The translations under genes and the position numbers were made by a program. A stretch of 64,000 nucleotides of DNA. Origin: a virus. Location of the stretch: IMG/VR virus record IMGVR_UViG_3300033996_001333, positions 3,389 to 67,388 of that record. One strand, written 5' to 3'. Within the stretch, counting starts at the first letter, position 1. Every line of letters begins with the position of its first letter. Of this stretch, positions 7,848 through 59,133 are shown piece by piece. A model generated the notes under the pieces. That model searched no databases and had not been told where the DNA came from. It saw nothing but the letters and a program-made list of their open reading frames with translations.

Positions 7848-8037
7848 AGGGGACCTTGAAAAGTTGGTAGAAAATAGAGACATTCTGAGCTACTCTTACT
7901 CGGAGGTTAAAGGCTGCCAGGGTTCACATGGCGGAGAATACCTGCAACTCATTTTACCGTCCGGAGCTTGCATAGGGATAGGCTCCTGGTCAACACCCAC
8001 CCCTGAAACGAGTGGGCTAAGCATAGAAGTTTATTAG
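7831..8037 (+). CDS. hypothetical protein
   Basis: 68 aa ORF ending just before the ncRNA region. Confidence 0.35.
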   Translation: MPLMIEGDLEKLVENRDILSYSYSEVKGCQGSHGGEYLQLILPSGACIGIGSWSTPTPETSGLSIEVY

Positions 8038-8039
8038 GC

Positions 8040-8400: not shown

Positions 8401-8428
8401 CCTACACTCCAACCCACGCTGAAACACT

Positions 8429-9779: not shown

Positions 9780-9868
9780 CCCTTGCCCATGGTGCGAGAC
9801 TCTAACCCTTACCTTGGGTCTTATATCCACCCAAGCAAGCCCGCTCAAACAAGAACCATACAAGGAAA

Positions 9869-10730
9869 AATGACAACTTTCGACAAATGCCTCGGAGCCT
9901 TTATTGGCCTTGCGATCGGTGACGCGATGGGTGCGCCAGTGGAGTTCTCTCCACCGGGGACCTTTGAGACCGTCACAGGTTACCGAGCAGGGGGGCCCTT
10001 TAATCTGCCGTCAGGCTACTGGACGGACGACACATCGCAGGCTGTTTGCCTTGCCGAGTCTTTTATTCATTGCAATGGGCAGATCAATCTTGGAGACCAA
10101 ATGCGTCGGTACTCCAACTGGTACGAGTACGGAAGGAACAGCTCAACAGGTGTCTGTTTTGACATCGGCAATGGAACACTTCGTGCAATTGAGACTTTTC
10201 TCGTTGAGGGGTCTTTGAGTCTCTATCCGGAGAATTCGAAAGGAAACGGGTCTTTGATGCGTTTATCCCCCGTTTCTATTGTGTACCACAAGTCAAGTGA
10301 GCAGGACGCTGTAGCAGCGTGTGACGCGTCATCATCAACAACCCATGGCCACTTGGCATCCGACCTATGCAAAGATCTCGGTCGTTTGCTGCACCAATAC
10401 TTAAATGGCACGGGGGGAAAACCTGAAGTCTCGCCGGAGGGAATTGAAAATTCCGGGTACGCACCGAAGTCCTTAAACGCCGCACTCTACCACTTTGGGT
10501 CAACTTCGTCCTTTGAAGAGGCCATCCTGCAGGCTGTGAACTACGGGGACGACTCAGACACGGTTGCTGCGATTACGGGGCAGCTAGCAGGTGCTTACTA
10601 CGGTTACAAGGCTATTCCTAAGCGATGGGTTTCGGGGTTGCACGACAGCGAAAGACTTTTGCTCATAGCGAGCACTTTGTACGACCTTTCGTTTGGGACG
10701 GTTTCCCCCCTTGTTTCTACTCTGAAATAA
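9869..10730 (+). CDS. ADP-ribosylglycohydrolase (ARH/DraG family)
   Basis: GAFIGLAIGDAMGAPVEF, YWTDDTSQ, GNGSLMRLSPV and YGDDSDTVAAITGQLAGAYYG are ARH family signatures. Start taken at MTTFDK. Confidence 0.75.
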
Positions 10731-16426: not shown

Positions 16427-16440
16427 TTTTACCCCGTGCG

Positions 16441-16488
16441 CGGCGGGAAACCGTCCTTTACCCTCGCCCCTAAACAAGCTATAGTAAG
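16441..16488 (+). promoter_or_regulatory. intergenic element copy 6 (GC hairpin in inverted orientation)
   Basis: CGGCGGGAAACCGTCC...CTAAACAAGCTATAGT. Confidence 0.45.
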
Positions 16489-16507
16489 CTCACACCGTAA
16501 AACAACA

Positions 16508-17449
16508 ATGCACGTGACCGAAACTAAAGAGTATCAGAAAACAGAGCCGATTGAGGTTTACTCGAATCGCGACGGACAAAACCTGTACAAGATTTCAAAG
16601 ACCTCCTTTACGTTCAGTGCCGGTGAAAGGCAGGTCCGGTTGCACGACACTCCAACAAATTCGACTGACATTATCGTAGACGCAGACATACACAGCGGAG
16701 AAAGTTTCGCAGAACTTCTTCTGACTCTGTCGGCCATCAAAGACCTTCCTGTGCTGCGAAGTCTACAATTGGACATCCCGTACTTACCTTATAGCCGCCA
16801 AGACCGCCAGTGCGCTGAAGGGGAAGCGTTTTCGCTAAGAACTTTTGTAAAAGCTCTCGCCCCTTATCTTAAGGGAGTGTGCGACCGGGTGTACACATGG
16901 GACGTGCACAGCCACGTTGCAAATGAGCTCTTTCGAACCGAAATCGGCTGCGAGTTCAACAACCTACAACCCCAACTGTTTCTCCAGAAGTTCAAAGACC
17001 GGGGGCAAGAGTTTAGTGCTGAGACAATTGTGATTGCTCCGGATAAAGGTGCAGTCGAAAGAGCAACCCTCGTACAACAAACACTGGGGCTCCACTCTGT
17101 AGTGTACGCTACGAAAGTTCGCAACCCTGAAGACGGGCAAATCCTAAGGACGGAAGTTCCAGAAGACGTCAGTTACAAGGGCAAAAACCTTCTGATTGTG
17201 GACGACATCTGCGATGGCGGTCGCACCTTTATCGAACTCGCCAAGGTGCTACGTCAGTTCGACCCGTCTCGAATTGACCTCTATGTAACTCACGGAATTT
17301 TCTCCAAGGGTTTTAAGGTGTTTGGGAGCTTAATCGACAACTTTTTCGTTGCGAACTTGCTCCCGTATAAAGCCTTTTACCAAGAGTTACCCTCGTACTT
17401 GACCTACCTTCGTACCGAAAACTACCCCACCCCACGCAACCAACCATGA
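16508..17449 (+). CDS. ribose-phosphate pyrophosphokinase homolog (Prs-like, or ADP-ribose pyrophosphokinase Adps-like)
   Basis: IPYLPYSRQDRQ matches MPYxGYARQDR. LIVDDICDGGRT is the PRPP-binding loop. Stop overlaps the next ATG. Confidence 0.75.
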   Translation: MHVTETKEYQKTEPIEVYSNRDGQNLYKISKTSFTFSAGERQVRLHDTPTNSTDIIVDADIHSGESFAELLLTLSAIKDLPVLRSLQLDIPYLPYSRQDRQCAEGEAFSLRTFVKALAPYLKGVCDRVYTWDVHSHVANELFRTEIGCEFNNLQPQLFLQKFKDRGQEFSAETIVIAPDKGAVERATLVQQTLGLHSVVYATKVRNPEDGQILRTEVPEDVSYKGKNLLIVDDICDGGRTFIELAKVLRQFDPSRIDLYVTHGIFSKGFKVFGSLIDNFFVANLLPYKAFYQELPSYLTYLRTENYPTPRNQP

Positions 17450-18960
17450 AAATTTTTGCGCCCCACGCAACCGACTTTTACAAGACAGGACACCCTTCGC
17501 AAAACCCTGAAGGCACCGAAGTAATCTACGCCAACATGACGGCAAGGTCCGACCGTCTGGCGAACATGCCCGCTGACTTCGACCACAAGATCGTCGTGGC
17601 CAACATCCAGGGGACAATGAAATGGATGCTGAGGGATCTTTGGAATGAGACCTTTTTTCAGCAACCCAAGGCCAAGGTGTTGGACAAATACAAGCGGCGA
17701 ATGGACTCCTCGCTCGGAGAAGGTGTTGTCGGCACTGACCACATTGCTGAGCTTCACGACCTGGGTTACATGCCGCTGCATGTGAAGGCACTACCCGAGG
17801 GCAGCCGTGTTAACATCGGAGTGCCGTTTCTGACGGCGCAAAACACACACAATGAGTTTAAGTGGCTGGCCCCGTGGTTAACCAACTATGTCGAAACCGC
17901 CAAGTCGTCTGAGCTGTGGAAGGCCATCAACGTGGCAACCATCGCCTACGAGTTTCGCCGTCTTCTCGACCACTACGCTGAAACCACAGGGAGTAATCCG
18001 CAGTTTGTTGACTTTCAGGGGCACGACTTCTCCGCTCGCGGAGTCGGAGGCATTCACGATGCCGCTGCGCACCAAATCGGCCACCTTTTTTCCTTCAAGG
18101 GCACGGACACAATCCTTTCCATTGATTATTTGGAGGATTACTACGATTGCGGTTCCAATTTCATTGGGGGTAGTATTCCCGCTACGGAACACAGTGTGAC
18201 CTGCCTTGGCGGTCAAAGAAACGAATTAGAGACAATTCGTCGAATTATTACAAAAGTATACCCAACTGGGCCGGTCAGTGTAGTTTTTGACACTTGGAAC
18301 TACTGGGATGCACTGACTGTTATTGCACCCGCACTTAAGGAAGACATCTTAAATCGTCGTCCGAATTCTCAGGGCATCGCTAAGGTCGTATTCCGTCCCG
18401 ACAGTGGTGACCCTGAGAAAATCATCTGCGGTGACGCTGACGCTGAGCCAGGTAGCCGAGAGTACAAAGGTTCGCTTGAGCTTTTATGGGAGGTCTTCGG
18501 AGGAACGGTAAACGAGAAGGGTTTCAAGGTACTGAACCCTCGAGTTGGCTTAATTTACGGCGACTCAATCACTCTTCCACGGGCCAGGGCCATCCTGGAG
18601 CACATGAGGCAGCTTGGGTGGGCGTCCGAAAACATCGTGTTCGGTATCGGTTCCTACACCTATCAATACCATACACGGGACACGTTCGGTATCGCATACA
18701 AAACGACCTGGGGGCAAATTAACGGTGTCGCCGTTGAAACTATGAAGGACCCCATTACGGATCGCGGCACGAAAAAGTCGGCGTTGGGTCTACTGCGAGT
18801 TGAAAAGGATGGGGAGAACTTTGTTCTTCATCAACAGCAGACTCGTGAGCAAGAGCAGCGAGGCGAGCTTCGCACCGTGTTCTTAAACAGCGTGGTTTAC
18901 GGGGAGGATGTAAACTCACTGCCTAACATTCGTACTCGACTTCTCAACCCCGCAGCTTAG
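17446..18960 (+). CDS. nicotinamide phosphoribosyltransferase homolog (Nampt/NadV-like, or Namat-like)
   Basis: 504 aa. N-terminal TDFYKTGH (compare the Nampt TDSYK motif), internal FKGTDT. ATGA overlap with the Prs-like gene. Confidence 0.7.
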   Translation: MKIFAPHATDFYKTGHPSQNPEGTEVIYANMTARSDRLANMPADFDHKIVVANIQGTMKWMLRDLWNETFFQQPKAKVLDKYKRRMDSSLGEGVVGTDHIAELHDLGYMPLHVKALPEGSRVNIGVPFLTAQNTHNEFKWLAPWLTNYVETAKSSELWKAINVATIAYEFRRLLDHYAETTGSNPQFVDFQGHDFSARGVGGIHDAAAHQIGHLFSFKGTDTILSIDYLEDYYDCGSNFIGGSIPATEHSVTCLGGQRNELETIRRIITKVYPTGPVSVVFDTWNYWDALTVIAPALKEDILNRRPNSQGIAKVVFRPDSGDPEKIICGDADAEPGSREYKGSLELLWEVFGGTVNEKGFKVLNPRVGLIYGDSITLPRARAILEHMRQLGWASENIVFGIGSYTYQYHTRDTFGIAYKTTWGQINGVAVETMKDPITDRGTKKSALGLLRVEKDGENFVLHQQQTREQEQRGELRTVFLNSVVYGEDVNSLPNIRTRLLNPAA

Positions 18961-23950: not shown

Positions 23951-24601
23951 GTGACCAAAGCACCCCAACCCATGAAGTCTCCCCCTGAATCAGTTACAGG
24001 AAAACTTTTGCTGAAGCCAGGGGACAGTGTGTTTGTTCCTGGAAAAATACTTAAAAATTCACCCGACGGTCGAACCTGGGGCACTGAAGTTCCTTACCTT
24101 CACTTTCGGAAGAGTCCAGTAAAAGACGGTCTCTACGTTGTGTCCGACATCTGGATGCACCCGAAAGCAACAGACCCGAACGTTCCATCCTCGTACTGCT
24201 ACACTCTGGTAAGAGTCCGTGAGGATCGAACCTGGACAAATGAACGGCGTAATCACAGAACACTAAGAAGCTGCTTCTCCCCGGAAGACATGTCAGAGAC
24301 AAAACTCCCGTACAACTGCCTCGACTGGGACCAGCTCCTTCGAGACCAAGTAGTTACGTCCTACGCGTACACCCCTGGTGAAAAGTTCGACATGGACGAG
24401 TTTAGAAAAGATCTGGGCCAAGTTCTTTACAAGCACAAGGTTACTCTGTCAGTAGACACGAAGTTCTCCGACGACTGGGACGAGCACGGCACAAACCACC
24501 TTGTTGTCCTCGCTAACGGGGAAATAAGGGGTGACCTTGGGTCTGACTTTCCAAAGCGGAGATCAGCGCCAGCCTGGGACAGTGGGAAACGAAATCGCTA
24601 G
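23951..24601 (+). CDS. hypothetical protein
   Basis: 216 aa ORF upstream of the RNA ligase. Confidence 0.5.
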   Translation: MTKAPQPMKSPPESVTGKLLLKPGDSVFVPGKILKNSPDGRTWGTEVPYLHFRKSPVKDGLYVVSDIWMHPKATDPNVPSSYCYTLVRVREDRTWTNERRNHRTLRSCFSPEDMSETKLPYNCLDWDQLLRDQVVTSYAYTPGEKFDMDEFRKDLGQVLYKHKVTLSVDTKFSDDWDEHGTNHLVVLANGEIRGDLGSDFPKRRSAPAWDSGKRNR

Positions 24602-24656
24602 TCCCAACCTTGCCCAGATAAACAAAACTCAACGGTCCCACCCACCTAAAGCTGTC

Positions 24657-25769
24657 ATGGAACCTTTAAACCTGCGCCACTTTCTAATCGACTGGTTAAA
24701 CTACCGGGTCGAGACTGCTTTTGAAGCACTTGCCGAGCACGACATTCGTGTTGCTCGCGACGAACGTTACCCTGCTCTTTTTAACTTGAAGTATGGCAGT
24801 GTAATGGCGGACAAGTCACTACCGATTGTTCGTGCCTGCCGTGGTGCCGTAGTCGAACTTGTTGACGATGGCACGGGCTCCCCGTACTTTCGGCTGGTTG
24901 CGTACGCCTTCGACCGCTTTTTCAACGTTGGCGAGGGGTATGCCGCTGAGATTGATTGGTCCACTGCCCGTGTAGCTGAGAAGTATGACGGGTCTCTGAT
25001 CAAGTTGTTCAACTATAAAGGAGAGTGGTTGGTATCAACATCGGGTTCAGTCGCTGGTTCTTCGGAAGTCGGGACCACGGGTCGCTCCTTCTCCGAGTTG
25101 TTTTGGCACGTTTTTAACGAAGTTGGATATGACCGGGCTGACCTCGACCCTTATTTTGTCTACGTCTACGAGTTGTGCCACAAAGACAACAAAATTGTTG
25201 TAGACTACGAGACTCCCTTACTACCTCTTCTGGCTGTTCGAAGCCGCTTTGACGATCTAAACGAAGTGGATCTCAAGCATTTTGAAAACCGCTTCAACAT
25301 CGCTCAGACCTACGACCTGCGCTCACATGAAGCTGTAACGCAGTTTGTAAACGACTCCTCTCGTGGTACCGCTGAAGGCGTAATTATTGTCGACGGAAAC
25401 GGAAACCGCCAGAAAGACAAGTCCAACGTCTATTGTCAGTTGCACAGGGTTAAAGGAAACGGCGAACCGGATTTCTCCGAGCTTTTCCTGAACGACGACT
25501 TGGAAGAGTTTCTGCTTCACTTTCCCGAGTATCGTGGGGGTTTTGACGTTCACCTGCGTTCCATCGAAGTGATGGAGAGTGCGGTGAGCGAGAACATGAG
25601 GGCTCACAACCATCTTAACCAGAAGGATTTCGCTCAAGCCGTACTTGCCGAGTCAAAAGAACTTTCTGGAGCATGCTTTGCGATTCGATCCGGCAAAGTC
25701 GGATCCTTTGCAGAGTGGCTCGAAGGTTTAACCCCGAAAAAGCTCGACGTTTTGCTCGGAATTTCCTGA
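24657..25769 (+). CDS. RNA ligase, T4 Rnl1-like
   Basis: AEKYDGSLIKLF is nucleotidyltransferase motif I (KxDG), like T4 Rnl1 KEDGSL. 370 aa taken from the internal ATG (MEPLNL). Confidence 0.65.
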   Translation: MEPLNLRHFLIDWLNYRVETAFEALAEHDIRVARDERYPALFNLKYGSVMADKSLPIVRACRGAVVELVDDGTGSPYFRLVAYAFDRFFNVGEGYAAEIDWSTARVAEKYDGSLIKLFNYKGEWLVSTSGSVAGSSEVGTTGRSFSELFWHVFNEVGYDRADLDPYFVYVYELCHKDNKIVVDYETPLLPLLAVRSRFDDLNEVDLKHFENRFNIAQTYDLRSHEAVTQFVNDSSRGTAEGVIIVDGNGNRQKDKSNVYCQLHRVKGNGEPDFSELFLNDDLEEFLLHFPEYRGGFDVHLRSIEVMESAVSENMRAHNHLNQKDFAQAVLAESKELSGACFAIRSGKVGSFAEWLEGLTPKKLDVLLGIS

Positions 25770-39159: not shown

Positions 39160-40281
39160 ATGGCAAACATCGAACGCAAACTCGCCTCCGTCCGACAAGT
39201 AACGGAGATTCGCCCAATCCCGGACGCCGACGCAATTGAGTGCGCCATCGTGGGAGGTGGCTGGCCCGTTGTCGTGAAGAAGGGGGAGTTCCAAGCTGGC
39301 GATCTTGCAATCTACTTCGAGATTGACTCGTGGATCCCCCACGGGCTTGCCCCGTTCTTGTCAAAGGGGAAGGAACCAAGGGAGTACAATGGAGTGAAGG
39401 GGGAAAGGTTGAAAACCGTCCGGCTCCGTGGCCAAGTCTCTCAGGGTCTCCTACTTCGCTTCTCGGACATCTCTCCAAGCTTCTACGTTGTTTCGCTAGC
39501 TGAACCTTATGGGGGGAGGGGATCTCTCCGAGTTGATGAGTGTGTGTGGGAAGAAGGCGAAGATTTCACTCTAGAGTTTGGCATTCAGAAATGGGAGGCC
39601 ACGGTCCCCGCTTGCCTTGCCGGACAAGTGCGTGGAAACTTCCCGAGTTTTTTGGTTAAGAGTGACCAAGAGAGATGTCAAAATATCGTGAGAAAAATCT
39701 TCGAGGAGCACAAGGAGGAAACCTACGAAGTATCCTTGAAGCTGGACGGGTCTTCCTGCACCATTTATGCCCGAGACGGGGACAGTGGCGTGTGTAGCCG
39801 CAACCTAGACCTTAAGGAAACAGAAGGAAACAGCTTCTGGAAGGCTGCTCGAGAACAAGGTGTAATCGACGCCTTGCTGTCCTATAATAAGGAAACCGGT
39901 CGCAACATTGCTCTTCAGATGGAGCTGTGCGGTGAAGGAATTCAAGGAAACCAAGAAGGAATCAAAGGACAACGGCTTTTTCTTTTTGACGTCTTCGACA
40001 TCGACACTCAGACCTACATGAAGCCGGGGCAGCGACTTGTTTTCCTTGACGAGGTTTTGACTGAGCTTGGGGCCAAGTTGGAACACACTCCCATTATTGA
40101 CCTTCGAACTTACGTTGCCGGACGATTCGCCAACCTTGACGAGCTACTTGCTTATGCAGATGGTCCGTCTATGAACCCAAAAGTCAAGCGTGAAGGTGTG
40201 GTGTTCAAATCGTACGACTCCGCGTTCTCCTTCAAGGCCATTAGCAACGAGTGGTTGCTGTGGAAAGGGAAGAAAGGGTGA
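39160..40281 (+). CDS. RNA ligase, DraRnl/DRB0094-like (Rnl5 family)
   Basis: N-terminal KLASVRQVTEIRPIPDADAIECAIVGGGWPVVVKKGEFQAGDLAIYFEIDSWIP resembles the DRB0094-family N-domain. Motif I candidate VSLKLDGSS (KxDG). Confidence 0.55.
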   Translation: MANIERKLASVRQVTEIRPIPDADAIECAIVGGGWPVVVKKGEFQAGDLAIYFEIDSWIPHGLAPFLSKGKEPREYNGVKGERLKTVRLRGQVSQGLLLRFSDISPSFYVVSLAEPYGGRGSLRVDECVWEEGEDFTLEFGIQKWEATVPACLAGQVRGNFPSFLVKSDQERCQNIVRKIFEEHKEETYEVSLKLDGSSCTIYARDGDSGVCSRNLDLKETEGNSFWKAAREQGVIDALLSYNKETGRNIALQMELCGEGIQGNQEGIKGQRLFLFDVFDIDTQTYMKPGQRLVFLDEVLTELGAKLEHTPIIDLRTYVAGRFANLDELLAYADGPSMNPKVKREGVVFKSYDSAFSFKAISNEWLLWKGKKG

Positions 40282-42689: not shown

Positions 42690-43427
42690 ATGAATAACGT
42701 TACTTCCAATTTTGCCTTCATCGGCGACCTACACTCTCAGAGAAAGCCCCTGCTCAAAGCACTCGATTATTGCCGAGGAGCAAATTGCACACCAATTTTC
42801 CTCGGCGACCTTTTTGACTCTCGCATGGAAACAAGCGACAGTGTGGGTGTGTACAAAGCCGTTCGGCAAGCCGTGGAAGAAGGGGCGATTGTGCTTCGAA
42901 GCAACCACCAAAACAAGCTGGAGCGTTACGCTCGCGGGAACAACGTGGTTCTTAAAGAGGGCTTTGAGCGTACTGTGCAAGACTTCTCAGACGCAGGTAT
43001 CCCTATTGAGGAAGTCTCTGCCTGGCTGGAAACTTTTCCCTACGGGGTTGCCTTGCGAGATTCCAGAGGGACAGAGTACCGTTGTGCTCACGCGATGTTT
43101 CCGAAGTGGGTTCTTGTTCCGCCGTCTTACACAGGAGTATACCGTGTGAATGAGGTTACGAGAAAAGCCAAGGACTACATGCTATTTGGTCCTCGCCGTC
43201 CCGGTGCGGTGTACCCTCAAGATGAGACTCGTGTCTTTTGGTGGGAAGAGGAATGCGATCGGACCTGGGTTCGTGTCGCAGGGCACTACCACCACGTTCA
43301 CACGAGCGAGAAGAGCCTGGTTCTCGACGGTCAGATGGGTGGCAGCACTCAGAAAAGTTTTGACCCGGCGCACGCTCGCCTCTGTGTGTGGAACCTGGAA
43401 GAACAGACCCTTGTTCAGTTTGCTTAG
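42690..43427 (+). CDS. calcineurin-like metallophosphoesterase
   Basis: FIGDLHSQ...IFLGDLFDSR...SNHQN matches the GDxHG / GDxxDRG / GNH(E/D) pattern. Confidence 0.6.
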   Translation: MNNVTSNFAFIGDLHSQRKPLLKALDYCRGANCTPIFLGDLFDSRMETSDSVGVYKAVRQAVEEGAIVLRSNHQNKLERYARGNNVVLKEGFERTVQDFSDAGIPIEEVSAWLETFPYGVALRDSRGTEYRCAHAMFPKWVLVPPSYTGVYRVNEVTRKAKDYMLFGPRRPGAVYPQDETRVFWWEEECDRTWVRVAGHYHHVHTSEKSLVLDGQMGGSTQKSFDPAHARLCVWNLEEQTLVQFA

Positions 43428-44401: not shown

Positions 44402-45220
44402 ATGTCACTCGCAAAAATTGGTATCGGCGTTGGTGCCGGTGCTCTCCTTCTCGCCCTCACCGCTGGTCAGTTCACTACGATCAACACCGGTGAAAACGGG
44501 CTCTATGTCGGTTTCGACGGCCAAGTGAAAAACGAGGTTCTGACACCAGGCATTAAGTACGACGGGTTCGGATCCATTAAGGTGTTCAACACCCGAAAGA
44601 TCACGGTAACTGCAAACGACCTTCGCCCGAAGACCAAGGACAACACCATCATGAAAGAGATGGATGTTACTGTAACATACAGCATCAACCCTAACTCCCT
44701 TTACGAGTTCTTCACCAACTACGATCTGACTAATCACGGGATTGCCGAAAATGGTCAGCTTCAATTAATGTCCAGCTACATTTCCAGGTTGATTACATCC
44801 GCCGTAAATCAGTCTGTCGATGAGTTCCCCGCACTAGCTGTAAACAGCAGCCTGGAACAGATTCAAGACACAATCAAAACCAACCTGTCCGAAGCTCTTC
44901 GAAAGAACGGCCTTGACGGTAAAATAACCGTCGACTCCATCATCGTAGGCAAAGCTGACTTACCAGACGAATTGGTGGCGTCGGTGAATCGTGTAGTTGC
45001 CGCCCAATCTGGTTTAAAAGAGCAGCAAGTTAAGACTGAAACGGCTCAACTTAAGGCCGAGGAAAACAAGGCACTGGCGTCCACAGTGACTTCGCAGTCT
45101 CTTGAGTACCAACGTCTTGAGGTTCTCCGTGAAGCCATGAAAAACGGCAGTATTCAAAAGATTCTGATTAACGGTGCCAACGTGCTCTCCCTATCCGAGG
45201 GTGTTTTTAACTCGAAGTGA
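44402..45220 (+). CDS. SPFH/Band 7 (prohibitin/HflC-like) domain protein
   Basis: N-terminal transmembrane segment followed by INTGENGLYVGFDGQVKNEVLTPGIKY...ITVTANDLRPKTKDNTIMKEMDVTVTYSI. Confidence 0.6.
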   Translation: MSLAKIGIGVGAGALLLALTAGQFTTINTGENGLYVGFDGQVKNEVLTPGIKYDGFGSIKVFNTRKITVTANDLRPKTKDNTIMKEMDVTVTYSINPNSLYEFFTNYDLTNHGIAENGQLQLMSSYISRLITSAVNQSVDEFPALAVNSSLEQIQDTIKTNLSEALRKNGLDGKITVDSIIVGKADLPDELVASVNRVVAAQSGLKEQQVKTETAQLKAEENKALASTVTSQSLEYQRLEVLREAMKNGSIQKILINGANVLSLSEGVFNSK

Positions 45221-46489: not shown

Positions 46490-46648
46490 TTCCCAGGATT
46501 TACTGCGTTAGGTTTTAACTATGCTTGGGTGTCGATGGCTCAGCAACCTTTGAGGATTTCCTCCACCATTTGACCATCGAGTCCTTACCCATAGCGCAAA
46601 GTTGATACAGCTTTAATTTGTATCCAAACAAACAATCAACTTGAGAAA

Positions 46649-48133
46649 ATGACAACGCCATCCTTTTTAAACGCACTCGAAAACGAGTTTAACCAAACCA
46701 TCACCGCTAACGGTGCAAAGGCATACAAGTCCACCGAGTCTAAGTGCCTGGACCTCTTTGGAAAGATTGCAGCTTGCCGTGACAACATCAGCGAAGCAAC
46801 TCGCCTATTCAATCTTGCTTATGCCGAAAACCCTGAGACCGCAACTCGAATCCTGTTTTGGGCACGCGACATTCGTGGGGGCCAGGGAGAGCGAAAGATC
46901 TTTCGAGAAGTTTTTAAGGAACTCGTCCTCAATGACGCTGCAATTGGTGCCAGGCTAGTTAGCCTGATTCCACAGTACGGTCGCTGGGATGATGTGGTAG
47001 CCCTCGACGGTACCTTAGTTTGGGGCATCGCACTCGAAGCAATTAAGGCACAACTGAACGCCGACCTAAATACGGAAGTTGGAAAGTCAGTGTCACTTCT
47101 GGCAAAGTGGCTGCCTTCCATTAACGCTTCCAGCCAGGACTCTAAGAGGATTGGCCGAAAAATTGCCGAAGCAATGGGTTGGACCGAGAGACAGTACCGC
47201 AAGGCACTGACTGCCCTCAGGACCCAAGTCAAAATTGTTGAGCAGCCAATGTGTGCTCGTGAGTGGGAAAGCATTGACTATAGCAAGTTGCCTTCTCGGG
47301 CCGGCTTTATGTACCGTAAAGCTTTCGTCAAGCGCGACGGCAACCGCTACCAATCCTACCTTGACTCGGTAGAAAAAGGTGAGGCAAAAATCAATGCCGG
47401 TACGATCTACCCTTACGAGATCGTGCACAAGTACCTTTACGGGGGCGATAGGAGTGATCAAACCTTAAACTTAATGTGGGAAGCTCTACCCAACTACATG
47501 GAAGGAGAGCAGCTGAACGGCCTGGTAATTGCCGACGTCTCAGGATCAATGGGAAACAACGGCGGCATGCCCATGGCGGTTTCAATCTCGCTGGCGATGT
47601 ACATCGCTGAGCGTAACACCGGGGCATGGAAGGATAAGTTCCTAACCTTCTCCGGAAGTCCGCAGTTGCAGTCGGTTACAGGGAGAAACGTTGCTGAGCG
47701 TGTTAGTAACCTTAGTCGGGCCGACTGGGGTGCGAATACAGACCTGCAAGCAGTCTTCAATCTTGTGTTGGCTACCGCAACGAGGAACCATATTCCTGAG
47801 GGGGAAATGCCGCGCAAGCTCATCATTGTCTCAGACATGCAGTTTGATTCCTGCTGCAGAAACAACTCAGTGACAAACTTTGAGGCGGTGCGAATCAAGT
47901 ATGCTCAAGCAGGGTATTCCTTGCCGGAACTTGTCTTCTGGAATGTTAGCTCTAGCGGCAACGTACCTATGAAAATGCATGATACGGGGACTTGCCTGGT
48001 CTCCGGATGCAGCCCTTCAATCCTGAAAGCTGTGCTTACTGGCGGGGTAATTACGCCTGTAGGGGTTATGCGTGACGCTGTTTACACTGAAAGGTACGAC
48101 GCTGTCGGTGCCGTATTTGCTGAAGGAGCATGA
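46649..48133 (+). CDS. vWA/MIDAS protein with N-terminal helical TROVE/DUF2828-like region (Ro60-like architecture)
   Basis: C-terminal LVIADVSGSMGNNGGMPMAVSISLAMYIAE carries the vWA MIDAS motif DxSGS. The helical N-terminal 300 aa and the 494-aa size fit DUF2828/Ro60-like proteins. Confidence 0.5.
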   Translation: MTTPSFLNALENEFNQTITANGAKAYKSTESKCLDLFGKIAACRDNISEATRLFNLAYAENPETATRILFWARDIRGGQGERKIFREVFKELVLNDAAIGARLVSLIPQYGRWDDVVALDGTLVWGIALEAIKAQLNADLNTEVGKSVSLLAKWLPSINASSQDSKRIGRKIAEAMGWTERQYRKALTALRTQVKIVEQPMCAREWESIDYSKLPSRAGFMYRKAFVKRDGNRYQSYLDSVEKGEAKINAGTIYPYEIVHKYLYGGDRSDQTLNLMWEALPNYMEGEQLNGLVIADVSGSMGNNGGMPMAVSISLAMYIAERNTGAWKDKFLTFSGSPQLQSVTGRNVAERVSNLSRADWGANTDLQAVFNLVLATATRNHIPEGEMPRKLIIVSDMQFDSCCRNNSVTNFEAVRIKYAQAGYSLPELVFWNVSSSGNVPMKMHDTGTCLVSGCSPSILKAVLTGGVITPVGVMRDAVYTERYDAVGAVFAEGA

Positions 48134-48822: not shown

Positions 48823-49272
48823 ATGGAAAACACCCCAGTATACAGCATCTTCTCGGGGATACCTCCTTTCTCAGTTAGCCCTAAAGCAATGTGGAAGTTT
48901 AACAAACCCCTGAGTCAATTGCGCTCCTTTCGTGACAGTTTACTGAGGGACGACCAACACACCTACGCCGCAAGGCTTGGAGAAATTGTGGAGTCCCTCG
49001 AAGAGTGGTATGAAGGTTCCATGGAGTCGAGCGAAGAGGTAGAGGGGGCTGAGGGAGTAGGTGGCTTTGAGGAGTTAAGCAAAGTGTACAGAGAGGCAAA
49101 CTCAATCTACGAGTCTAAGCTCTCCGATGAAGCCAAGTATGACCTTATTTTCTCCAAGAAGATATCGCAAAAAGTCCCCTTCTCGTGGTACGACCCTGAC
49201 ACATCTTACGAGGAGGACGTAAGGTACTTTATGAACGCCTTTCGAGAGTACATGGGTGATTCTCCGCGATAG
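48823..49272 (+). CDS. hypothetical protein
   Basis: 149 aa ORF. Confidence 0.5.
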   Translation: MENTPVYSIFSGIPPFSVSPKAMWKFNKPLSQLRSFRDSLLRDDQHTYAARLGEIVESLEEWYEGSMESSEEVEGAEGVGGFEELSKVYREANSIYESKLSDEAKYDLIFSKKISQKVPFSWYDPDTSYEEDVRYFMNAFREYMGDSPR

Positions 49273-49399
49273 GTGCCGTGCGGGATCTCTGCTTGAGTCC
49301 GTTTACCCCTAGCACTTCCAACCTATGATACGGATGTGGAGCTCAAGGTTCCACTCCTCGCCCCCTTAACCTCCACCCAGCAAAGCGGTGCGAAAAAAC

Positions 49400-49521
49400 C
49401 GAAGAGTAGCCAAGTGGTTAGGCAGCGGTAATGCAAAAAGATTACCTAGCTTAGGTAATTCAGCAACTACCCAATACGCAAAAGGAACCGCCATACGCAA
49501 GTTCGAATCTTGCCTCTTCGA
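49400..49521 (+). tRNA. tRNA-like gene with about 50-nt insertion in the anticodon region
   Basis: Acceptor CGAAGAG/CTCTTCG, D-arm GCC-AAGTGGTTA-GGC, T-arm GCAAG-TTCGAAT-CTTGC, variable CATAC. The anticodon-stem-like helix GCGGT/ACCGC encloses 57 nt. Anticodon undetermined. Confidence 0.4.
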
Positions 49522-49683
49522 CTTTGCCTTCGGCAAACATAGATAGTTCAGCGATTTACCCTAACTCTCTTGGGAAAAACAACTATCTAGCTAAACCCAA
49601 ACTTTATCCCCATAATGATAGTAAAAGACCTTTATTCTCGATCCAAGTAATTTGCCAAGCAAACTTAGATAGAACAAAAAGAT

Positions 49684-49929
49684 ATGACACCCACTGAAGC
49701 AGGTTTTGACGGTGACAAGGGCATACGACTAGGAATGACAAACATGCAGGGCGGTGGATTGTACCGGCTTCCACGGAGTAAAACTGCACCCACAAACTCC
49801 CAAAACAAATCGTTAAAGAACATGCTGGTCTGGCATTACCCTGACGACAGCGACTCTAAGCTCTTGTTCTGTAACTCTGACGGAGAGTGGTTTAACTTAA
49901 CCTTTGAACCCATTAACATTGGAGAGTAG
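49684..49929 (+). CDS. hypothetical protein
   Basis: 81 aa ORF between the tRNA-like genes. Confidence 0.4.
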   Translation: MTPTEAGFDGDKGIRLGMTNMQGGGLYRLPRSKTAPTNSQNKSLKNMLVWHYPDDSDSKLLFCNSDGEWFNLTFEPINIGE

Positions 49930-49985
49930 CTCAAGGGCTAAGAAAAACTTTCAGTATCGCTCCAGGTAGTTTTCGGAGCAAATAC

Positions 49986-50097
49986 GGGACCGTAGCTCAA
50001 CTGGTAGAGCACGAAAAGTTATCTTGACAAAGATACATCAGCAATTAAATTACCTCTTTTAAAGGCGCGGTTGCAGGTTCGAGTCCTGCCGGTCCCA
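49986..50097 (+). tRNA. tRNA-like gene with about 40-nt insertion in the anticodon region
   Basis: Acceptor GGGACCG/CGGTCCC, TA, D-arm GCTC-AACTGGTA-GAGC, T-arm GCAGG-TTCGAGT-CCTGC. 61 nt lie between the D-arm and the T-arm where 21-22 are expected. Confidence 0.4.
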
Positions 50098-50111
50098 TTC
50101 CCATTTTTGCT

Positions 50112-50654
50112 ATGACTAACAGCAAGACCTCATTTCTCCTAACTCAAAACCACCTGAAACTGCTGAGAAGAATGCACGTTGGGTGGAGCAACTGTGAATT
50201 CGGTGCTCCGGAAATAGACCCGAAAAGACCGTATGGCAACAGTTGGGTTATCGGAGACATACACGAAATTCTGACTGGAGAAGACCTAGAAGAATTGACC
50301 GAGTCACAGGAAGAGGAGTACAGGCAACTTCACGAACAAACTCAAACAGCCCTCCAAATCATTCTCTCTACGGGGAAGTTTGAGGAAGGTTTGTACATGC
50401 TTACTGAACCGTATTCTTCTACATGGGTGCGGAAAGCCATGATCAATTCCATGGCCTACAAAGACTACACAGCCAGTATGGTCTTCGATACTGAAGACAA
50501 GATTATTGTTGGTCGTGTCCTAGACATCGACGACATTATCTCGTTTCACGGCGAAACGATAGCTGAATTTGAATCCAACTTTCATGCAGCCATCGAAGAC
50601 TATCTAGCCGCATCCCAGGAACTTGGCTCTTCGCCGGAAAAGCCCGCAAGTTAA
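50112..50654 (+). CDS. hypothetical protein flanked by tRNA 3'-end repeats
   Basis: 180 aa. Begins 15 nt after the tRNA-like gene and is followed by a 28-nt copy of the tRNA 3' end. Confidence 0.5.
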   Translation: MTNSKTSFLLTQNHLKLLRRMHVGWSNCEFGAPEIDPKRPYGNSWVIGDIHEILTGEDLEELTESQEEEYRQLHEQTQTALQIILSTGKFEEGLYMLTEPYSSTWVRKAMINSMAYKDYTASMVFDTEDKIIVGRVLDIDDIISFHGETIAEFESNFHAAIEDYLAASQELGSSPEKPAS

Positions 50655-50662
50655 GGTACTTC

Positions 50663-50690
50663 GAGTGTCTAAGGTTCGGTTTCAGGTTCG
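50663..50690 (+). repeat. partial duplicate of the tRNA 3' end (direct repeat of 50069-50097)
   Basis: TCAGGTTCGAGTCCCGCCGGTTCCA resembles GCAGGTTCGAGTCCTGCCGGTCCCA. No matching 5' acceptor strand upstream. Confidence 0.5.
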
Positions 50691-50720
50691 AGTCCCGCCG
50701 GTTCCATTTTCACACGAACA

Positions 50721-50918
50721 ATGAACAGAGTTTCAATTGCGATCTTGGCGCTTTGCACCGCTTTATCTGGCAACGAGGCATTGTGCAAGACTCAAGTGGT
50801 AGTAACAGGCAGGAACGCAGAAGAAGTACAAAGAAATGCGTTCAGGGCCAAAATGAGCTACCCGCTCAGACCGGTGAAATGTAGTCAACGGTGCTCTCAA
50901 TTGCGGGAAAGAGACTGA
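50721..50918 (+). CDS. small secreted protein
   Basis: Signal peptide MNRVSIAILALCTALSGNEA. 65 aa. Confidence 0.4.
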   Translation: MNRVSIAILALCTALSGNEALCKTQVVVTGRNAEEVQRNAFRAKMSYPLRPVKCSQRCSQLRERD

Positions 50919-54903: not shown

Positions 54904-54992
54904 GGGCGTGTGGTGTACGGTGCACAGGGACCCTTATACAGTCCTCTCCGGCAGATTACCGGCTAGTTAGGGTTCGACTCCCTACACGCCTA
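54904..54992 (+). tRNA. class II-like tRNA (long variable arm), anticodon uncertain (possibly UAU)
   Basis: Acceptor GGGCGTG/CACGCCT, T-arm AGGG-TTCGACT-CCCT, variable hairpin CCGG-CAGATTA-CCGG. The anticodon stem GGACC/AGTCC has a 31-39 mismatch. 89 nt. Confidence 0.45.
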
Positions 54993-55082
54993 CTTAGTTT
55001 CAAGTCCTCGAAAACTCGTTAAAGAACACACCCACAGGTCATATCCGGTGAACGACACAGGAGTGGCCCACCACGGTGACAA

Positions 55083-57956: not shown

Positions 57957-58421
57957 ATGGAAAACAACCTCGAAGCATATGTGATGGTCGGTGCCCCTGG
58001 CTCCGGTAAGTCAACCCATGTGGCTAAGCTACTAGAGCTTCACCCAGATGCCGTTGTACTTTCCGGCGATGAAATCCGCGCCGAGCTCTACGGGAACGCG
58101 GACATTCAGGGAAATTACGTAGAAATCCACGACCGCATGCTTGAGATTCTGGAGGAGAGTGTCGGTCGCACCGTGATTATGGACGGAACACATTACAGGG
58201 CAGCTTACCGCAAGGAAGCAGTTGCCATGCTAAACTCGTACGGTTACTGCAAAATCACCGCTGTTGTCCTTGACAAGCCTCTCGCCGTTTGCTTGCGGCA
58301 AAATGCCTCTCGCGACCGCAAGGTTCCGGAAGAAGTAATTGAGCGCATGCACGCCTCCTTACAAGCTTCCCTCAAGAATATCACCAACGAACCCTTCCAC
58401 CGTACTGACTTTGTATACTGA
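57957..58421 (+). CDS. P-loop polynucleotide kinase-like protein (T4 Pnk kinase-domain-like)
   Basis: VMVGAPGSGKST Walker A motif. 154 aa, about the size of the Pnk kinase module. Confidence 0.55.
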   Translation: MENNLEAYVMVGAPGSGKSTHVAKLLELHPDAVVLSGDEIRAELYGNADIQGNYVEIHDRMLEILEESVGRTVIMDGTHYRAAYRKEAVAMLNSYGYCKITAVVLDKPLAVCLRQNASRDRKVPEEVIERMHASLQASLKNITNEPFHRTDFVY

Positions 58422-58425
58422 CGAA

Positions 58426-59133
58426 ATGATAACTTACGACGAAAAGTTACACCCAGGTGACGTAGTTGCCCTTGGTGACATTCACGCGACCTGGACTCTT
58501 TTCGAACAATTTCTAAATTGGGTGAAAGGGTCTCAAGCCACCGTCATACTTTTAGGTGACATGATTGATCGTGGTAGGGGCGACCTGAAAGTTTTGGAGT
58601 ATACGAAAAAGCTCCTCGACGATCCGGAAAGTTGGGGGCTTCAAGCCTTTTATGCCCTGATGGGGAACCACGAGAGGATGTTTCTTGACGCCCTTGACGA
58701 CCCAAGTAGTTACGCTCTGTGGATTCAAAACGGCGGAAACTATGACCAGGTGGGTGAGATGGAAAGAAAGCATAAGGAGTGGATTCGGGAGCTGCCCTTA
58801 TACATGACAATTGCGGACACTCTCTTCATTCACGCGGGGATCTACCCCGGTCACGACCCTGCAAAGCTCATTGTCGATGGAAGGGGGGAGGCACTGCTAT
58901 GGATTCGTCAACCTTTCTTGACCTATGGGCCGGAATTCGAAGGGTGGAACCCGAGACTGAAGAAAGTTGTTCACGGGCATACTCCCACCAACTTCGAAGA
59001 GCCCCCACAGGACTATATCCCGATTGTGATGGGGCAACGCGTAAATATTGACACATGCGCATACTCCAAGCCAAAGGGTCGCCTAACCGCTTACAACGTT
59101 ACTCGAAATACTTTTCACCAGTTCTCACGGTAA
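58426..59133 (+). CDS. calcineurin-like metallophosphoesterase (lambda phosphatase/Pnkp phosphoesterase-like)
   Basis: VVALGDIHATW...ILLGDMIDRGRG...MGNHE matches GDxHG / GDxxDRG / GNHE. Confidence 0.65.
   Translation: MITYDEKLHPGDVVALGDIHATWTLFEQFLNWVKGSQATVILLGDMIDRGRGDLKVLEYTKKLLDDPESWGLQAFYALMGNHERMFLDALDDPSSYALWIQNGGNYDQVGEMERKHKEWIRELPLYMTIADTLFIHAGIYPGHDPAKLIVDGRGEALLWIRQPFLTYGPEFEGWNPRLKKVVHGHTPTNFEEPPQDYIPIVMGQRVNIDTCAYSKPKGRLTAYNVTRNTFHQFSR

What the first reader, a model, noticed from the sequence alone, without database searches (positions are those of the whole stretch)
49400..50097. Two tRNA-like genes with 40-50 nt insertions in the anticodon region
Both loci have the following.
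- Perfect 7-bp acceptor pairings: CGAAGAG/CTCTTCG and GGGACCG/CGGTCCC.
- Canonical D-arms: GCC-AAGTGGTTA-GGC and GCTC-AACTGGTA-GAGC.
- Canonical T-arms with TTCGAAT or TTCGAGT loops.

They are 122 and 112 nt long. At 49400 the anticodon-stem position is a helix GCGGT/ACCGC enclosing 57 nt. The enclosed segment shows an internal GGTAAT/ATTACC hairpin with an 8-nt loop. At 49986 about 40 extra nt lie between the D-arm and T-arm.

These are too short for group I introns and not canonical 37/38 archaeal or eukaryal-type introns by my hand fold. They could be a new class of small tRNA introns or inserts, Y-RNA-like decoys, or tRNA pseudogenes.

The neighbouring tRNA-Arg(UCU) and tRNA-Ser(CGA) are normal length, so this is not a systematic reading error.
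Basis: seen in the sequence. Interest (0 to 1): 0.6.

Follow-up and report, generated by a model that had tools for sequence, protein, structure and literature searches.

The report
tRNA-shaped Y RNAs beside phage Ro60-like gene
The two over-long "tRNA genes" are most likely not tRNAs with introns; they look like tRNA-shaped non-coding RNAs carrying a conserved docking module, encoded just downstream of a phage Ro60-like RNA-binding protein, which would make them a differently wired version of the known bacterial Y RNAs that mimic tRNA.

Summary
Window 49400-49521 (122 nt, "T1") and 49986-50097 (112 nt, "T2") score as tRNAs in Rfam (44.7 and 48.5 bits). Each has a 57- or 39-nt insert in the anticodon arm.

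The inserts are homologous to each other: an A-rich linker, a hairpin, then single-stranded (A/U)CAGCAAYUA. In T2 the insert sits inside the 5' strand of the anticodon stem. Removing it restores CGCCU-CUUUUAA-AGGCG.

The anticodon-like loop is the most variable part among orthologues, so these are probably not decoding tRNAs.

The same "stem + ACAGCAAU" module also occurs free-standing next to DUF2828 genes in mycobacteriophage, Bacillus and Listeria phages and on diverse genome contigs. There it sometimes encloses a permuted T-arm/acceptor/D-arm like YrlA.

Best reading: unpermuted, tRNA-bodied Y-RNA-like partners of a phage Ro60-like protein. This is a new variant of a known kind. Binding and function are inferred, not shown.

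The parts
46532..46580 (+). Free-standing stem + motif module: UCGAUGG - CUCAGCAACC... - CCAUCGA. It lies about 70 nt upstream of the Ro60-like gene.
   Evidence: Script scan. RNAfold gives the terminal stem, z = -2.4.
46599..46642 (+). Module in the leader of the Ro60-like gene: AAGUUGAU - ACAGCUUUAAUU... - AUCAACUU. It ends 6 nt before the ATG. Possible autoregulatory site (inferred).
   Evidence: Sequence. Orthologous AAGTTGAT...ATCAACTT modules sit at the same place in L007, L010, L013 and L014. Fold (z = -1.3, weak on its own).
46649..48133 (+). Ro60-like protein gene: DUF2828 helical-repeat domain followed by a DUF7788/vWA domain, 494 aa.
49302..49329 (+). Promoter-like site TTTACC-16-TATGAT, about 70 nt upstream of T1.
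   Evidence: Consensus scan only; the number of sites is not above chance.
49400..49521 (+). T1: tRNA-bodied RNA of 122 nt. The anticodon stem GCGGU/ACCGC is intact, and its loop is replaced by a 57-nt module.
   Evidence: Rfam tRNA 44.7 bits. CM R1 50.5 bits. Seven orthologues show compensatory changes in the acceptor stem and hairpin.
49430..49486 (+). T1 insert: A-rich linker, hairpin 49441-49448/49452-49459, motif CAGCAACUA at 49461-49469, and an A-rich tail.
49540..49589 (+). Free-standing module: UAGAUAGUU - CAGCGAUUUACCC... - AACUAUCUA.
   Evidence: z = -2.5. Orthologues follow T1 in L007, L010, L011, L013 and L014.
49986..50097 (+). T2: tRNA-bodied RNA of 112 nt with a three-way junction in the anticodon stem.
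   Evidence: Rfam tRNA 48.5 bits. CM R1 107 bits. Identical in L001-L005.
50014..50052 (+). T2 insert (39 nt): AAAA, hairpin GUUAUCUU-GACA-AAGAUAC (50018-50036, with a bulged U), AU, motif CAGCAAUUA (50039-50047), then AAUUA.
   Evidence: Hairpin helices are 86% and 99% paired across 70 distinct sequences.
50053..50067 (+). Anticodon-like stem-loop of T2: CCU-CUUUUAA-AGG, then CG, which pairs with C27-G28 at 50012-50013. It resembles a tRNA-Lys(UUU) loop.
   Evidence: Sequence. Split-stem pairs covary (helices 3 and 6). Loops differ among orthologues.
50671..50708 (+). Degenerate copy (87% identity) of the 3' part of T2. Its T-stem no longer pairs. With T2 it flanks ORF 50112-50654.
   Evidence: Direct repeat D4; sequence.

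Best explanation
T1 and T2 are structured non-coding RNAs built from a complete tRNA body: a 7-bp acceptor stem, D-arm, T-arm and tertiary-pair signatures. A conserved module is grafted into the anticodon arm: a hairpin immediately followed by single-stranded (A/U)CAGCAAYUA.

I propose that this module is the docking site for the phage's Ro60-like ring protein, the DUF2828 + vWA product of 46649-48133. On this reading the RNAs are the phage's Y RNAs.

They have the same two-module logic as bacterial YrlA, a Ro-binding module plus a tRNA mimic. The wiring is a circular permutation of YrlA. Here the RNA ends are in the acceptor stem and the Ro module is closed by a hairpin. In YrlA-like RNAs of mycobacteriophage and Bacillus phages the ends are in the Ro-module stem and the acceptor is closed by a loop.

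Inferred steps, none shown:
1. Transcription, then end-processing by host RNase P and RNase Z, then CCA addition.
2. Binding by the Ro60-like protein.
3. The tRNA half either recruits tRNA-recognising partners (PNPase as in known Ro-Y RNPs, or the RNA-repair ligases encoded in the same window) or baits host tRNA-targeting nucleases.

The fast-changing anticodon-like loop would fit a bait or specificity role.
For: **The RNAs are real and selected**
- Rfam tRNA scores are 44.7 and 48.5 bits.
- CM R1 finds 87 copies (70 distinct).
- 97.2% of cells pair, against 71% for shuffled partners and 42-52% for partners slid by 1-3 columns.
- 25 of 28 pairs show double changes, including the split anticodon stem and the inserted hairpin.
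- G·U pairs occur only on this strand.
- T1 and T2 are 77-87% conserved where flanks have diverged.

**Linkage to the Ro60-like gene**
- All 87 copies are on the gene strand, 0.08-2.2 kb downstream of a DUF2828 gene.
- This holds in all 31 cyanophage loci of the 60-66% identity class that have downstream sequence.
- It also holds in Synechococcus phages B3 (annotated 'tRNA-Pseudo-GCA', 110 nt) and BUCT-ZZ01.
- In a protein-independent DNA-pattern scan, 16 of about 17 loci with a tRNA-embedded hit contained the DUF2828 gene; the remaining one (L157) had only about 220 nt of sequence upstream of the motif.

**The protein is Ro60-like**
- Homologues are annotated 'Ro-like RNA binding protein'.

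**The module is a stand-alone element tied to this protein family**
- Stem + CAGC[ACT]A gives 370 hits on the gene strand, 83 on the opposite strand and 71 in shuffled sequence, over 672 kb.
- Hits peak in the 250 nt before and about 800 nt after the gene.
- On 18 independent genome contigs from diverse taxa, the zone next to the gene has 31 hits on the gene strand and 0 on the other strand; 15 of 18 loci have at least one.
- Mycobacteriophage Jubie and Bacillus phage Thrax3 have modules that enclose a permuted T-arm/acceptor/D-arm. These score as Rfam YrlA below threshold, at 39.3 and 37.5 bits.

**Not a decoder**
- The anticodon-like loop is the most variable region in 3 of 4 orthologue groups: 75-86% of columns vary, against 0-33% in the T-arm and acceptor.
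- Loops of 6, 8 and 9 nt and loops without U33 occur.

**Context**
- The window encodes RlaP, an Rnl1-like ligase, a second RNA ligase and phosphoesterases.
- A Felixounavirus homologue of this protein is reported to counter the Ppl defence. Its authors guessed that nearby 'tRNAs' may be Y RNAs (bioRxiv 10.1101/2024.10.10.617714).
Against: - No binding, expression or processing data exist; everything rests on comparative genomics.
- The protein model is only moderate (pLDDT 68, pTM 0.56), and sequence searches find no PDB relative.
- The published Ro60-binding signature of YrlA (GNCGAAN0-1G, the 'CGAA' motif; PMC4201824, PMC12135203) is absent. The CAGCAAUUA motif is my own inference.
- The Rfam YrlA model does not hit the window.
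- Several free-standing stem + motif modules in other viral contigs have no DUF2828 gene within the 5-7 kb fetched.
- Felixounavirus wV8 has the gene but no such module.
- Many family members keep a canonical 7-nt loop with U33 and a purine at 37. BUCT-ZZ01 copies also encode CCA. Some tRNA-type function is therefore not excluded.
- In the window, 1.3 kb of small ORFs separates the gene from T1.
Confidence: 0.68

Rival explanations
1. They are genuine tRNA genes interrupted by a new class of small, protein-dependent intron. The intron sits in the 5' strand of the anticodon stem. It would be cut out by an unknown phage or host endonuclease and sealed by the phage RNA ligases. The conserved hairpin + CAGCAA would be the recognition element of the splicing machinery, possibly with the Ro60-like protein as chaperone.
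For: - Deleting the insert restores a perfect 5-bp stem and 7-nt loop in T2 and in most family members. The two halves of the stem covary.
- Many loops are canonical: AUGUUAA, AUCAUAA, AUUGUAA, CUGCCAA, CUUUUAA.
- BUCT-ZZ01 copies end in CCA.
- At least 20 different tRNA bodies carry the insert at the same position.
- The window encodes an Rnl1-like ligase, a second RNA ligase and phosphoesterases.
Against: - The anticodon-like loop is the most variable part among orthologues, and the implied anticodon changes within one orthologue group, for example UUU to GUU in T2.
- Loops of 6, 8 and 9 nt and loops without U33 occur.
- T1 and several other members have no anticodon arm to restore.
- The same module exists free-standing with no exons.
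- There is no BHB geometry, no group I core and no Rfam ribozyme.
- No splicing endonuclease was identified.
- The same genomes carry ordinary tRNA arrays.
Confidence: 0.12
2. They are tRNA-shaped decoys that act on their own, soaking up host anticodon nucleases or other tRNA-targeting defence proteins. The insert would block cleavage or decoding. Proximity to the Ro60-like gene would reflect a shared anti-defence island rather than physical binding.
For: - The anticodon-like loops resemble known nuclease targets (Lys UUU, Asn GUU) and evolve fast.
- The window is rich in RNA-repair and NAD-salvage genes typical of counter-defence.
Against: - This does not explain why the hairpin + CAGCAA module is the most conserved non-tRNA part.
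- It does not explain why the module recurs free-standing beside DUF2828 genes across distant phages.
- T1 offers no anticodon loop as bait.
Confidence: 0.12
3. They are decaying tRNA pseudogenes, or tRNA genes disrupted by a small mobile DNA element (MITE-like). The repeats would matter at the DNA level.
For: - Phage B3's copy is annotated as a pseudo-tRNA.
- A degenerate copy of the T2 3' part lies at 50671-50708.
Against: - 97% of pairs are kept with abundant compensatory changes in every helix, including the insert.
- The motif and G·U pairs are strand-specific, with 370 hits against 83 on the opposite strand.
- Conservation of T1 and T2 exceeds that of the flanks.
- No terminal inverted repeats or target-site duplications flank the insert.
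Confidence: 0.03

Closest known systems
YrlA, the bacterial and phage Y RNA that mimics tRNA (Chen et al. 2014, PMC4201824; Rfam RF02553)
   Same: - Encoded within a few kb of, and on the same strand as, a Ro60-type gene.
- Two modules: a protein-binding module and a tRNA-like domain with T-arm, D-arm and acceptor stem.
- The tRNA domain joins the other module through the anticodon-stem position.
- Several such RNAs per locus.
- YrlA-like permuted versions carrying the same CAGCAAUU motif sit beside DUF2828 genes in Jubie and Thrax3.
   Different: - Topology is unpermuted. The 5' and 3' ends are in a normal 7-bp acceptor stem and the putative Ro module is closed by a hairpin, so the gene reads as a tRNA with an insert.
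- Many copies keep a third helix that looks like an anticodon stem-loop.
- The motif is (A/U)CAGCAAYUA rather than GNCGAAN0-1G.
- The partner protein is DUF2828, not Pfam TROVE.
- The Rfam YrlA model does not detect these RNAs.
Metazoan and Deinococcus Ro60-Y RNA RNPs, and the Thermus phage phiLo Ro60-Yrl1/Yrl2-PNPase complex (PMC12135203)
   Same: - Small RNAs encoded next to the gene.
- A helix carrying a bulge as part of the conserved RNA element. T2- and T3-type hairpins have a conserved bulged pyrimidine.
   Different: - Those Y RNAs are stem-bulge-stem molecules with a CGAA motif and no full tRNA cloverleaf.
- Binding and PNPase recruitment were shown experimentally there and are untested here.
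Intron-containing tRNA genes: group I introns in cyanobacterial tRNA-Leu(UAA)/tRNA-fMet, and archaeal BHB introns at canonical and non-canonical positions (own knowledge)
   Same: Extra sequence in the anticodon arm of an otherwise normal tRNA gene. Removing it restores a canonical arm in many copies.
   Different: - The insert is 39-57 nt, with no P1-P9 core and no bulge-helix-bulge.
- It interrupts the stem after position 28-29 rather than lying at 37/38.
- The anticodon is not conserved among orthologues.
- The module also exists without exons.
Engineered 'tRNA scaffold' RNAs, in which a foreign RNA is inserted in place of the anticodon arm to gain stability and processing (Ponchon & Dardel; own knowledge)
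   Same: Same architecture. A tRNA body provides folding, end-processing and nuclease resistance to a functional RNA grafted at the anticodon arm.
   Different: That is an artificial design. The present case would be a natural counterpart, and this comparison is an analogy only.

Membership tests
Y RNA / YrlA | Encoded near a Ro60 orthologue, on the same strand. | tested here: met
   T1 starts 1.27 kb and T2 1.85 kb downstream of the Ro60-like gene, on the same strand. All 87 family members lie 0.08-2.2 kb downstream on the gene strand.
Y RNA / YrlA | Partner protein is a Ro60/TROVE ring + vWA protein. | tested here: inconclusive
   [not shown]
Y RNA / YrlA | Terminal stem formed by the 5' and 3' ends, carrying the conserved Ro60-binding sequence (GNCGAAN0-1G / CGAA). 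| tested here: not met
   The ends are in the acceptor stem. There is no conserved CGAA motif; the conserved element is a hairpin + CAGCAAYUA.
Y RNA / YrlA | A tRNA-like domain with T-arm, D-arm and acceptor-like stem. | tested here: met
   Full Rfam tRNA matches over model positions 1-71. Levitt-pair signatures G15:C48 and A15:U48 are present.
Y RNA / YrlA | Detected by the Rfam YrlA covariance model (RF02553). | tested here: not met
   No YrlA match at E<=10 in window 49200-50800. The only matches are sub-threshold, to the permuted relatives in L018 and L020.
Y RNA / YrlA | Physically bound by the Ro60 protein. | not testable with these tools
   Requires RIP, CLIP or EMSA.
Decoding tRNA | Cloverleaf with acceptor, D and T arms. 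| tested here: met
Decoding tRNA | Uninterrupted 5-bp anticodon stem with a 7-nt loop, U33 and a purine at 37. | tested here: not met
   T1 has 57 nt in place of the loop. T2's stem is interrupted by 39 nt. Across the family, loops of 6, 8 and 9 nt and G33 or C33 occur.
Decoding tRNA | Anticodon conserved among orthologues. | tested here: not met
   The loop is the most variable region in 3 of 4 orthologue groups. T2 orthologues read UUU or GUU.
Group I tRNA intron | Intron of about 200 nt or more, with a P1-P9 catalytic core, in the anticodon loop. | tested here: not met
   Inserts are 39 and 57 nt. No Rfam intron or ribozyme match at E<=10.
Archaeal/eukaryal tRNA intron | Bulge-helix-bulge motif at the splice sites, canonically at position 37/38. 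| tested here: not met
   By inspection of the sequence and folds, the junction linkers are 4-5 nt and about 16 nt, with no 3-4-3 BHB. The insert lies after position 28 in T2.

The most novel reading that the evidence does not exclude
Cyanophages carry a large, diversifying family of tRNA-shaped RNAs. At least 20 bodies are seen, with up to about 5 tRNA-bodied copies plus free-standing modules per locus. Each would display a rapidly evolving anticodon-like loop while docked on a Ro60-like ring. On this reading they work as programmable baits or adaptors against host tRNA-targeting immunity: they would intercept anticodon nucleases or hand damaged tRNAs to the phage's own ligases. Alternatively, the insert defines a previously unknown protein-dependent tRNA splicing system in phages.
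Probability: 0.2. Interest if true: 0.85.

Novelty: new variant of a known kind. Interest (0 to 1): 0.62.

Why it matters
If this reading is right, several things follow.

- **Annotation.** A class of genes now annotated as "pseudo-tRNA" (as in phage B3) or missed altogether by tRNA finders is a widespread family of phage non-coding RNAs. The window alone has 2 tRNA-bodied copies and 3 free-standing modules.
- **Extension of the Y RNA concept.** It covers a second Ro60-like protein family, DUF2828. That family is present in about 700 sequenced phages of E. coli, Salmonella, Listeria, Staphylococcus, Mycobacterium, Vibrio and cyanobacteria.
- **A concrete RNA element to test.** The proposed binding element is a helix followed by ACAGCAAU.
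- **Evolutionary relationship.** Permuted YrlA-type and unpermuted forms appear to be circular permutations of one design.
- **A testable hypothesis.** One homologue is reported to counter a defence system, and the loci sit among tRNA arrays and RNA-repair genes. This gives a starting point for asking what phage Ro-Y RNPs do.
- **Experimental access.** The hosts of phages B3, B23 and BUCT-ZZ01 are culturable, including Synechococcus elongatus PCC 7942.

Tried and rejected
- **ARAGORN intron mode.** Its solutions (Leu(CAG) + 29 nt, Gly(ACC) + 32 nt) were rejected. The folds need an all-A/U anticodon stem or an ad hoc extra arm, and they disagree with the covarying split stem.
- **blastn against GenBank phages.** The region found nothing. 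Relatives had to be reached through the neighbouring protein.
- **Rfam at E<=10.** Only tRNA was found: no ribozyme, riboswitch or YrlA.
- **phmmer of the DUF2828 protein against PDB.** Nothing was found. Only the fold search linked it to Ro60.
- **Literature searches.** Searches for DUF2828, cyanophage + Y RNA, Ro-like + phage + tRNA, and TROVE + vWA + phage found no description of these RNAs. The review PMC10870794 is not held.
- **First loose stem + motif scan.** It had too high a background and was replaced by stricter scans with opposite-strand, shuffle and position controls.
- **Protein-independent DNA pattern scan.** Many hits were chance matches inside a conserved coding sequence. Some free-standing modules had no DUF2828 gene in the fetched flank. 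I keep this as a caveat, not as support.
- **Felixounavirus wV8.** The intergenic gaps around the gene show promoters but no module.
- **A separate covariance model for the free-standing modules.** Their loops are too variable for a trustworthy MAFFT alignment, so I did not build one.
- **Promoter and terminator scan.** It gave nothing above chance.
Full report
**1. The observation**

Both loci exist as described.
- Rfam's tRNA model matches window 49986-50097 (48.5 bits, E 6.6e-9) and 49400-49521 (44.7 bits, E 7.2e-8) end to end. It skips 52 and 57 nt in the anticodon region.
- ARAGORN without intron mode misses both. With -i it forces them into Leu(CAG) and Gly(ACC) with 29- and 32-nt "introns" and implausible anticodon arms.
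- Both RNAs keep the tertiary-pair signature: G15:C48 in T1 and A15:U48 in T2.

I call 49400-49521 T1 and 49986-50097 T2.

**2. Anatomy of the inserts**

The two inserts are homologous. Each has an A-rich linker, a hairpin, then single-stranded UCAGCAACUA (T1, 49461-49469) or UCAGCAAUUA (T2, 50039-50047), followed by another A-rich stretch.

In T1 the 5-bp stem GCGGU/ACCGC is intact, and the 57-nt module replaces the loop.

In T2 the 39-nt module (50014-50052) interrupts the 5' strand of the anticodon stem after position 28. Without it the arm reads CGCCU-CUUUUAA-AGGCG, which resembles a tRNA-Lys(UUU) arm. T2 is therefore a tRNA with a three-way junction in its anticodon stem.

**3. Where the window comes from, and the neighbours**

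All genes run on the + strand.

The 494-aa ORF at 46649-48133 is DUF2828 + DUF7788/vWA.
- Its closest cultured relatives are the freshwater Synechococcus phages B3 and B23, at 62% identity.
- Homologues occur in 702 phage records.
- Mycobacteriophage homologues are annotated "Ro-like RNA binding protein".

**4. A large RNA family tied to that gene**

Rfam's tRNA model finds 112-128-nt "long tRNAs" downstream of the DUF2828 gene in all 12 related IMG/VR loci first scanned.

I built a covariance model (R1) with the split anticodon stem and the inserted hairpin.
- It finds 87 matches of at least 53 bits, 70 of them distinct.
- All are on the gene strand, 0.08-2.2 kb downstream of the gene end.
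- They occur in all 31 cyanophage loci of the 60-66% identity class that have downstream sequence, in the window's own clade, in phage B3 and in phage BUCT-ZZ01.
- Ordinary 70-75-nt tRNAs score below 50 bits with R1 and mostly lie in arrays upstream of the gene.

On the alignment of these 70 sequences, 97.2% of cells form standard pairs. The figure is 71% when 3' partners are shuffled and 42-52% when they are slid by 1-3 columns. Of the 28 pairs, 25 show changes on both sides.
- The upper two pairs of the split anticodon stem are 91% paired (CG 29, AU 16, UA 12...).
- The lower three pairs are 90% paired.
- The two hairpin helices are 86% and 99% paired.

The alignment is fitted to the model, which inflates these numbers somewhat. 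The slide control and hand inspection of the raw sequences agree with them.

At least 20 different acceptor stems carry the same module at the same position.

T1 and T2 are conserved islands (77-87% identity) where the flanking DNA of more distant relatives no longer aligns.

Phage B3's copy is annotated in GenBank as "tRNA-Pseudo-GCA", 110 nt.

**5. Not decoding tRNAs, and probably not introns**

Many family members have a canonical-looking 7-nt loop, for example AUGUUAA, AUCAUAA, AUUGUAA, CUGCCAA and CUUUUAA. The BUCT-ZZ01 copies even encode CCA. A tRNA origin is therefore clear.

However, within orthologue groups the anticodon-like loop is the most variable region.
- In three of four groups, 75-86% of loop columns vary, against 0-33% in the T-arm and acceptor.
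- T2 orthologues read CUUUUAA, AUUUUAA, CGUUUAA, ACGUUAA and AGGUUAA.
- Other groups have loops of 6, 8 or 9 nt, or G/C at position 33.
- T1 and several others have no anticodon arm at all.

There is no group I core, no bulge-helix-bulge and no Rfam ribozyme.

**6. The module exists on its own, next to the same protein family**

This is the strongest argument that the module is a functional RNA element rather than an intron.

A helix strand followed within 0-3 nt by (A)CAGCAAU, with the partner strand 20-170 nt downstream, recurs in the gaps flanking DUF2828 genes:
- three tandem copies after the gene in mycobacteriophage Jubie;
- three copies before the gene in Bacillus phage Thrax3, plus more inside its tRNA array;
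- three copies before the gene in Listeria phage LP-064;
- several copies in B3 and BUCT-ZZ01.

In Jubie and Thrax3, some modules enclose a T-arm, an acceptor hairpin and a D-arm in the permuted order typical of YrlA. Rfam's YrlA model hits them below threshold, at 39.3 and 37.5 bits.

Quantitatively:
- Across 86 loci (672 kb), stem + CAGC[ACT]A occurs 370 times on the gene strand, 83 times on the opposite strand and 71 times in shuffled sequence.
- In 45 full-length loci the hits pile up in the 250 nt before the start codon (34 hits) and the roughly 800 nt after the stop (132 hits). Elsewhere there are typically 1-3 per 250-nt bin.
- An independent set of 18 genome and MAG contigs from unrelated taxa (35-60% protein identity) gives 31 hits on the gene strand in the zone next to the gene and 0 on the other strand. 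Fifteen of 18 loci are positive.

The window itself has three free-standing modules: 46532-46580, 46599-46642 (in the leader of the Ro60-like gene) and 49540-49589.

T1's hairpin (AUUACCUAG/CUUAGGUAAU) is the closed form of the terminal stem of such free-standing modules. The cyanophage tRNA-bodied RNAs and the YrlA-like RNAs of Jubie and Thrax3 are therefore circular permutations of one design.

**7. Interpretation**

Known biology, from Chen et al. 2014 (PMC4201824):
- Bacterial and phage Ro60 orthologues are encoded next to Y RNAs.
- At least one Y RNA per species (YrlA) contains a tRNA-like domain that is modified by tRNA enzymes and, in M. smegmatis, cleaved by RNase P.
- Y RNAs tether Ro60 to PNPase.

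A phage Ro60 binds two adjacent Y-like RNAs and host PNPase (PMC12135203).

For the DUF2828 branch, a preprint reports that Felixounavirus Bas63 gp130 is Ro60-like, sits directly upstream of the tRNA array and counters the Ppl defence. Its authors guessed that some nearby "tRNAs" might be Y RNAs.

My evidence fits T1 and T2 into this frame as tRNA-bodied Y-RNA-like partners of the DUF2828 protein. The hairpin + CAGCAAYUA would be the docking element.

What is shown here:
- the structure and its covariation;
- strict linkage to the gene, in strand and position;
- recurrence of the module across distant phages;
- non-conservation of the anticodon.

What is inferred:
- binding by the protein;
- processing by RNase P, RNase Z and the CCA-adding enzyme;
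- any downstream role.

The window also encodes RlaP (4655-5797), an Rnl1-like ligase (24531-25769), a second RNA ligase (39160-40281) and phosphoesterases. This is compatible with a role in tRNA repair or counter-defence but does not prove one.

**8. Caveats**

- The published Ro60-binding motif (CGAA) is absent.
- The Rfam YrlA model does not see the window RNAs.
- The protein model is of moderate quality.
- In a protein-independent pattern scan, many hits were chance matches in a coding sequence. Several genuine-looking free-standing modules had no DUF2828 gene within 5-7 kb.
- Felixounavirus wV8 has the gene but no module.
- Canonical loops and encoded CCA in some members leave room for a tRNA-type activity or for splicing. 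I give that about 0.12.

**9. Novelty**

The kind, Y RNAs that mimic tRNA beside a Ro60 gene, is known. The following are new, as far as the searchable literature shows:
- the unpermuted tRNA topology, with the module inside the anticodon stem;
- the CAGCAAU motif;
- the DUF2828 partner;
- the size and diversity of the cyanophage family;
- the hypervariable anticodon-like loop.

Verdict: new variant of a known kind, interest about 0.6.

Noticed in passing
window 50671-50708 (with 50062-50099) and ORF 50112-50654: A 38-nt, 87%-identical degenerate copy of the 3' part of T2 lies 609 nt downstream. Together with T2 it brackets a 180-aa ORF whose C-terminus matches a PHROG 'HicB-like antitoxin'. 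It looks like the scar of a gene insertion at the tRNA-like 3' end.
   Followed up: partly
window 8034-8417: A permuted (two-piece type) tmRNA gene with tag peptide ANNIVKFERIAVAV. Rfam tmRNA_permuted scores 67.9 bits.
   Followed up: no
window 54904-54993: ARAGORN calls a 90-nt 'tRNA-Ile(UAU)' with a 3-bp D-stem and a long extra arm. Rfam's tRNA model does not reach its gathering score there, so this may be another non-standard tRNA-like RNA.
   Followed up: no
window 4655-5797, 24531-25769, 39160-40281, 42690-43427, 58339-59133: An RNA-repair toolkit: RlaP nucleotidyltransferase, T4 Rnl1-like ligase, a second RNA ligase with a PHA02142 OB fold, and two metallophosphoesterases.
   Followed up: partly
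window 9783-10730, 16436-17449, 17446-18960: ADP-ribosylglycohydrolase, a PRPP-synthetase-like protein and a NAPRTase-family protein. This is an NAD-salvage and ADP-ribose set of the sort linked to counter-defence.
   Followed up: no
window 48751, 50944, 51302, 52231, 55760 (+ strand): A repeated intergenic element: GGGCGGTTTACCCCC (a G+C hairpin) followed in two copies by TTGCCT-17-TATGAT. It is probably a phage terminator-promoter cassette.
   Followed up: no
window 44402-45220; L018 625-1557: A Band_7/SPFH-domain gene lies upstream of the Ro60-like gene both in this cyanophage window and in mycobacteriophage Jubie (gp48). This suggests conserved synteny across very distant phages.
   Followed up: no
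L023 2462-3013 (Listeria phage LP-064): A sub-threshold ROOL RNA match (87.4 bits against gathering 99.1) lies about 1 kb upstream of the DUF2828 gene. An RtcB-like ligase lies 1.3 kb downstream.
   Followed up: no
L007 8237-8321; L008 7833-7915: Free-standing modules that enclose only a T-arm-like hairpin (GCUGG-UUCAAAU-CCAGC). They are reminiscent of YrlB, which also has only a T-arm.
   Followed up: no
L103, L112, L120, L132, L139, L158, L161, L174 (IMG/VR contigs): Stem + AGAUACAUACAGCAAUU modules sit directly after tRNA genes in other viral contigs. No DUF2828 gene was detected within the fetched flank.
   Followed up: partly
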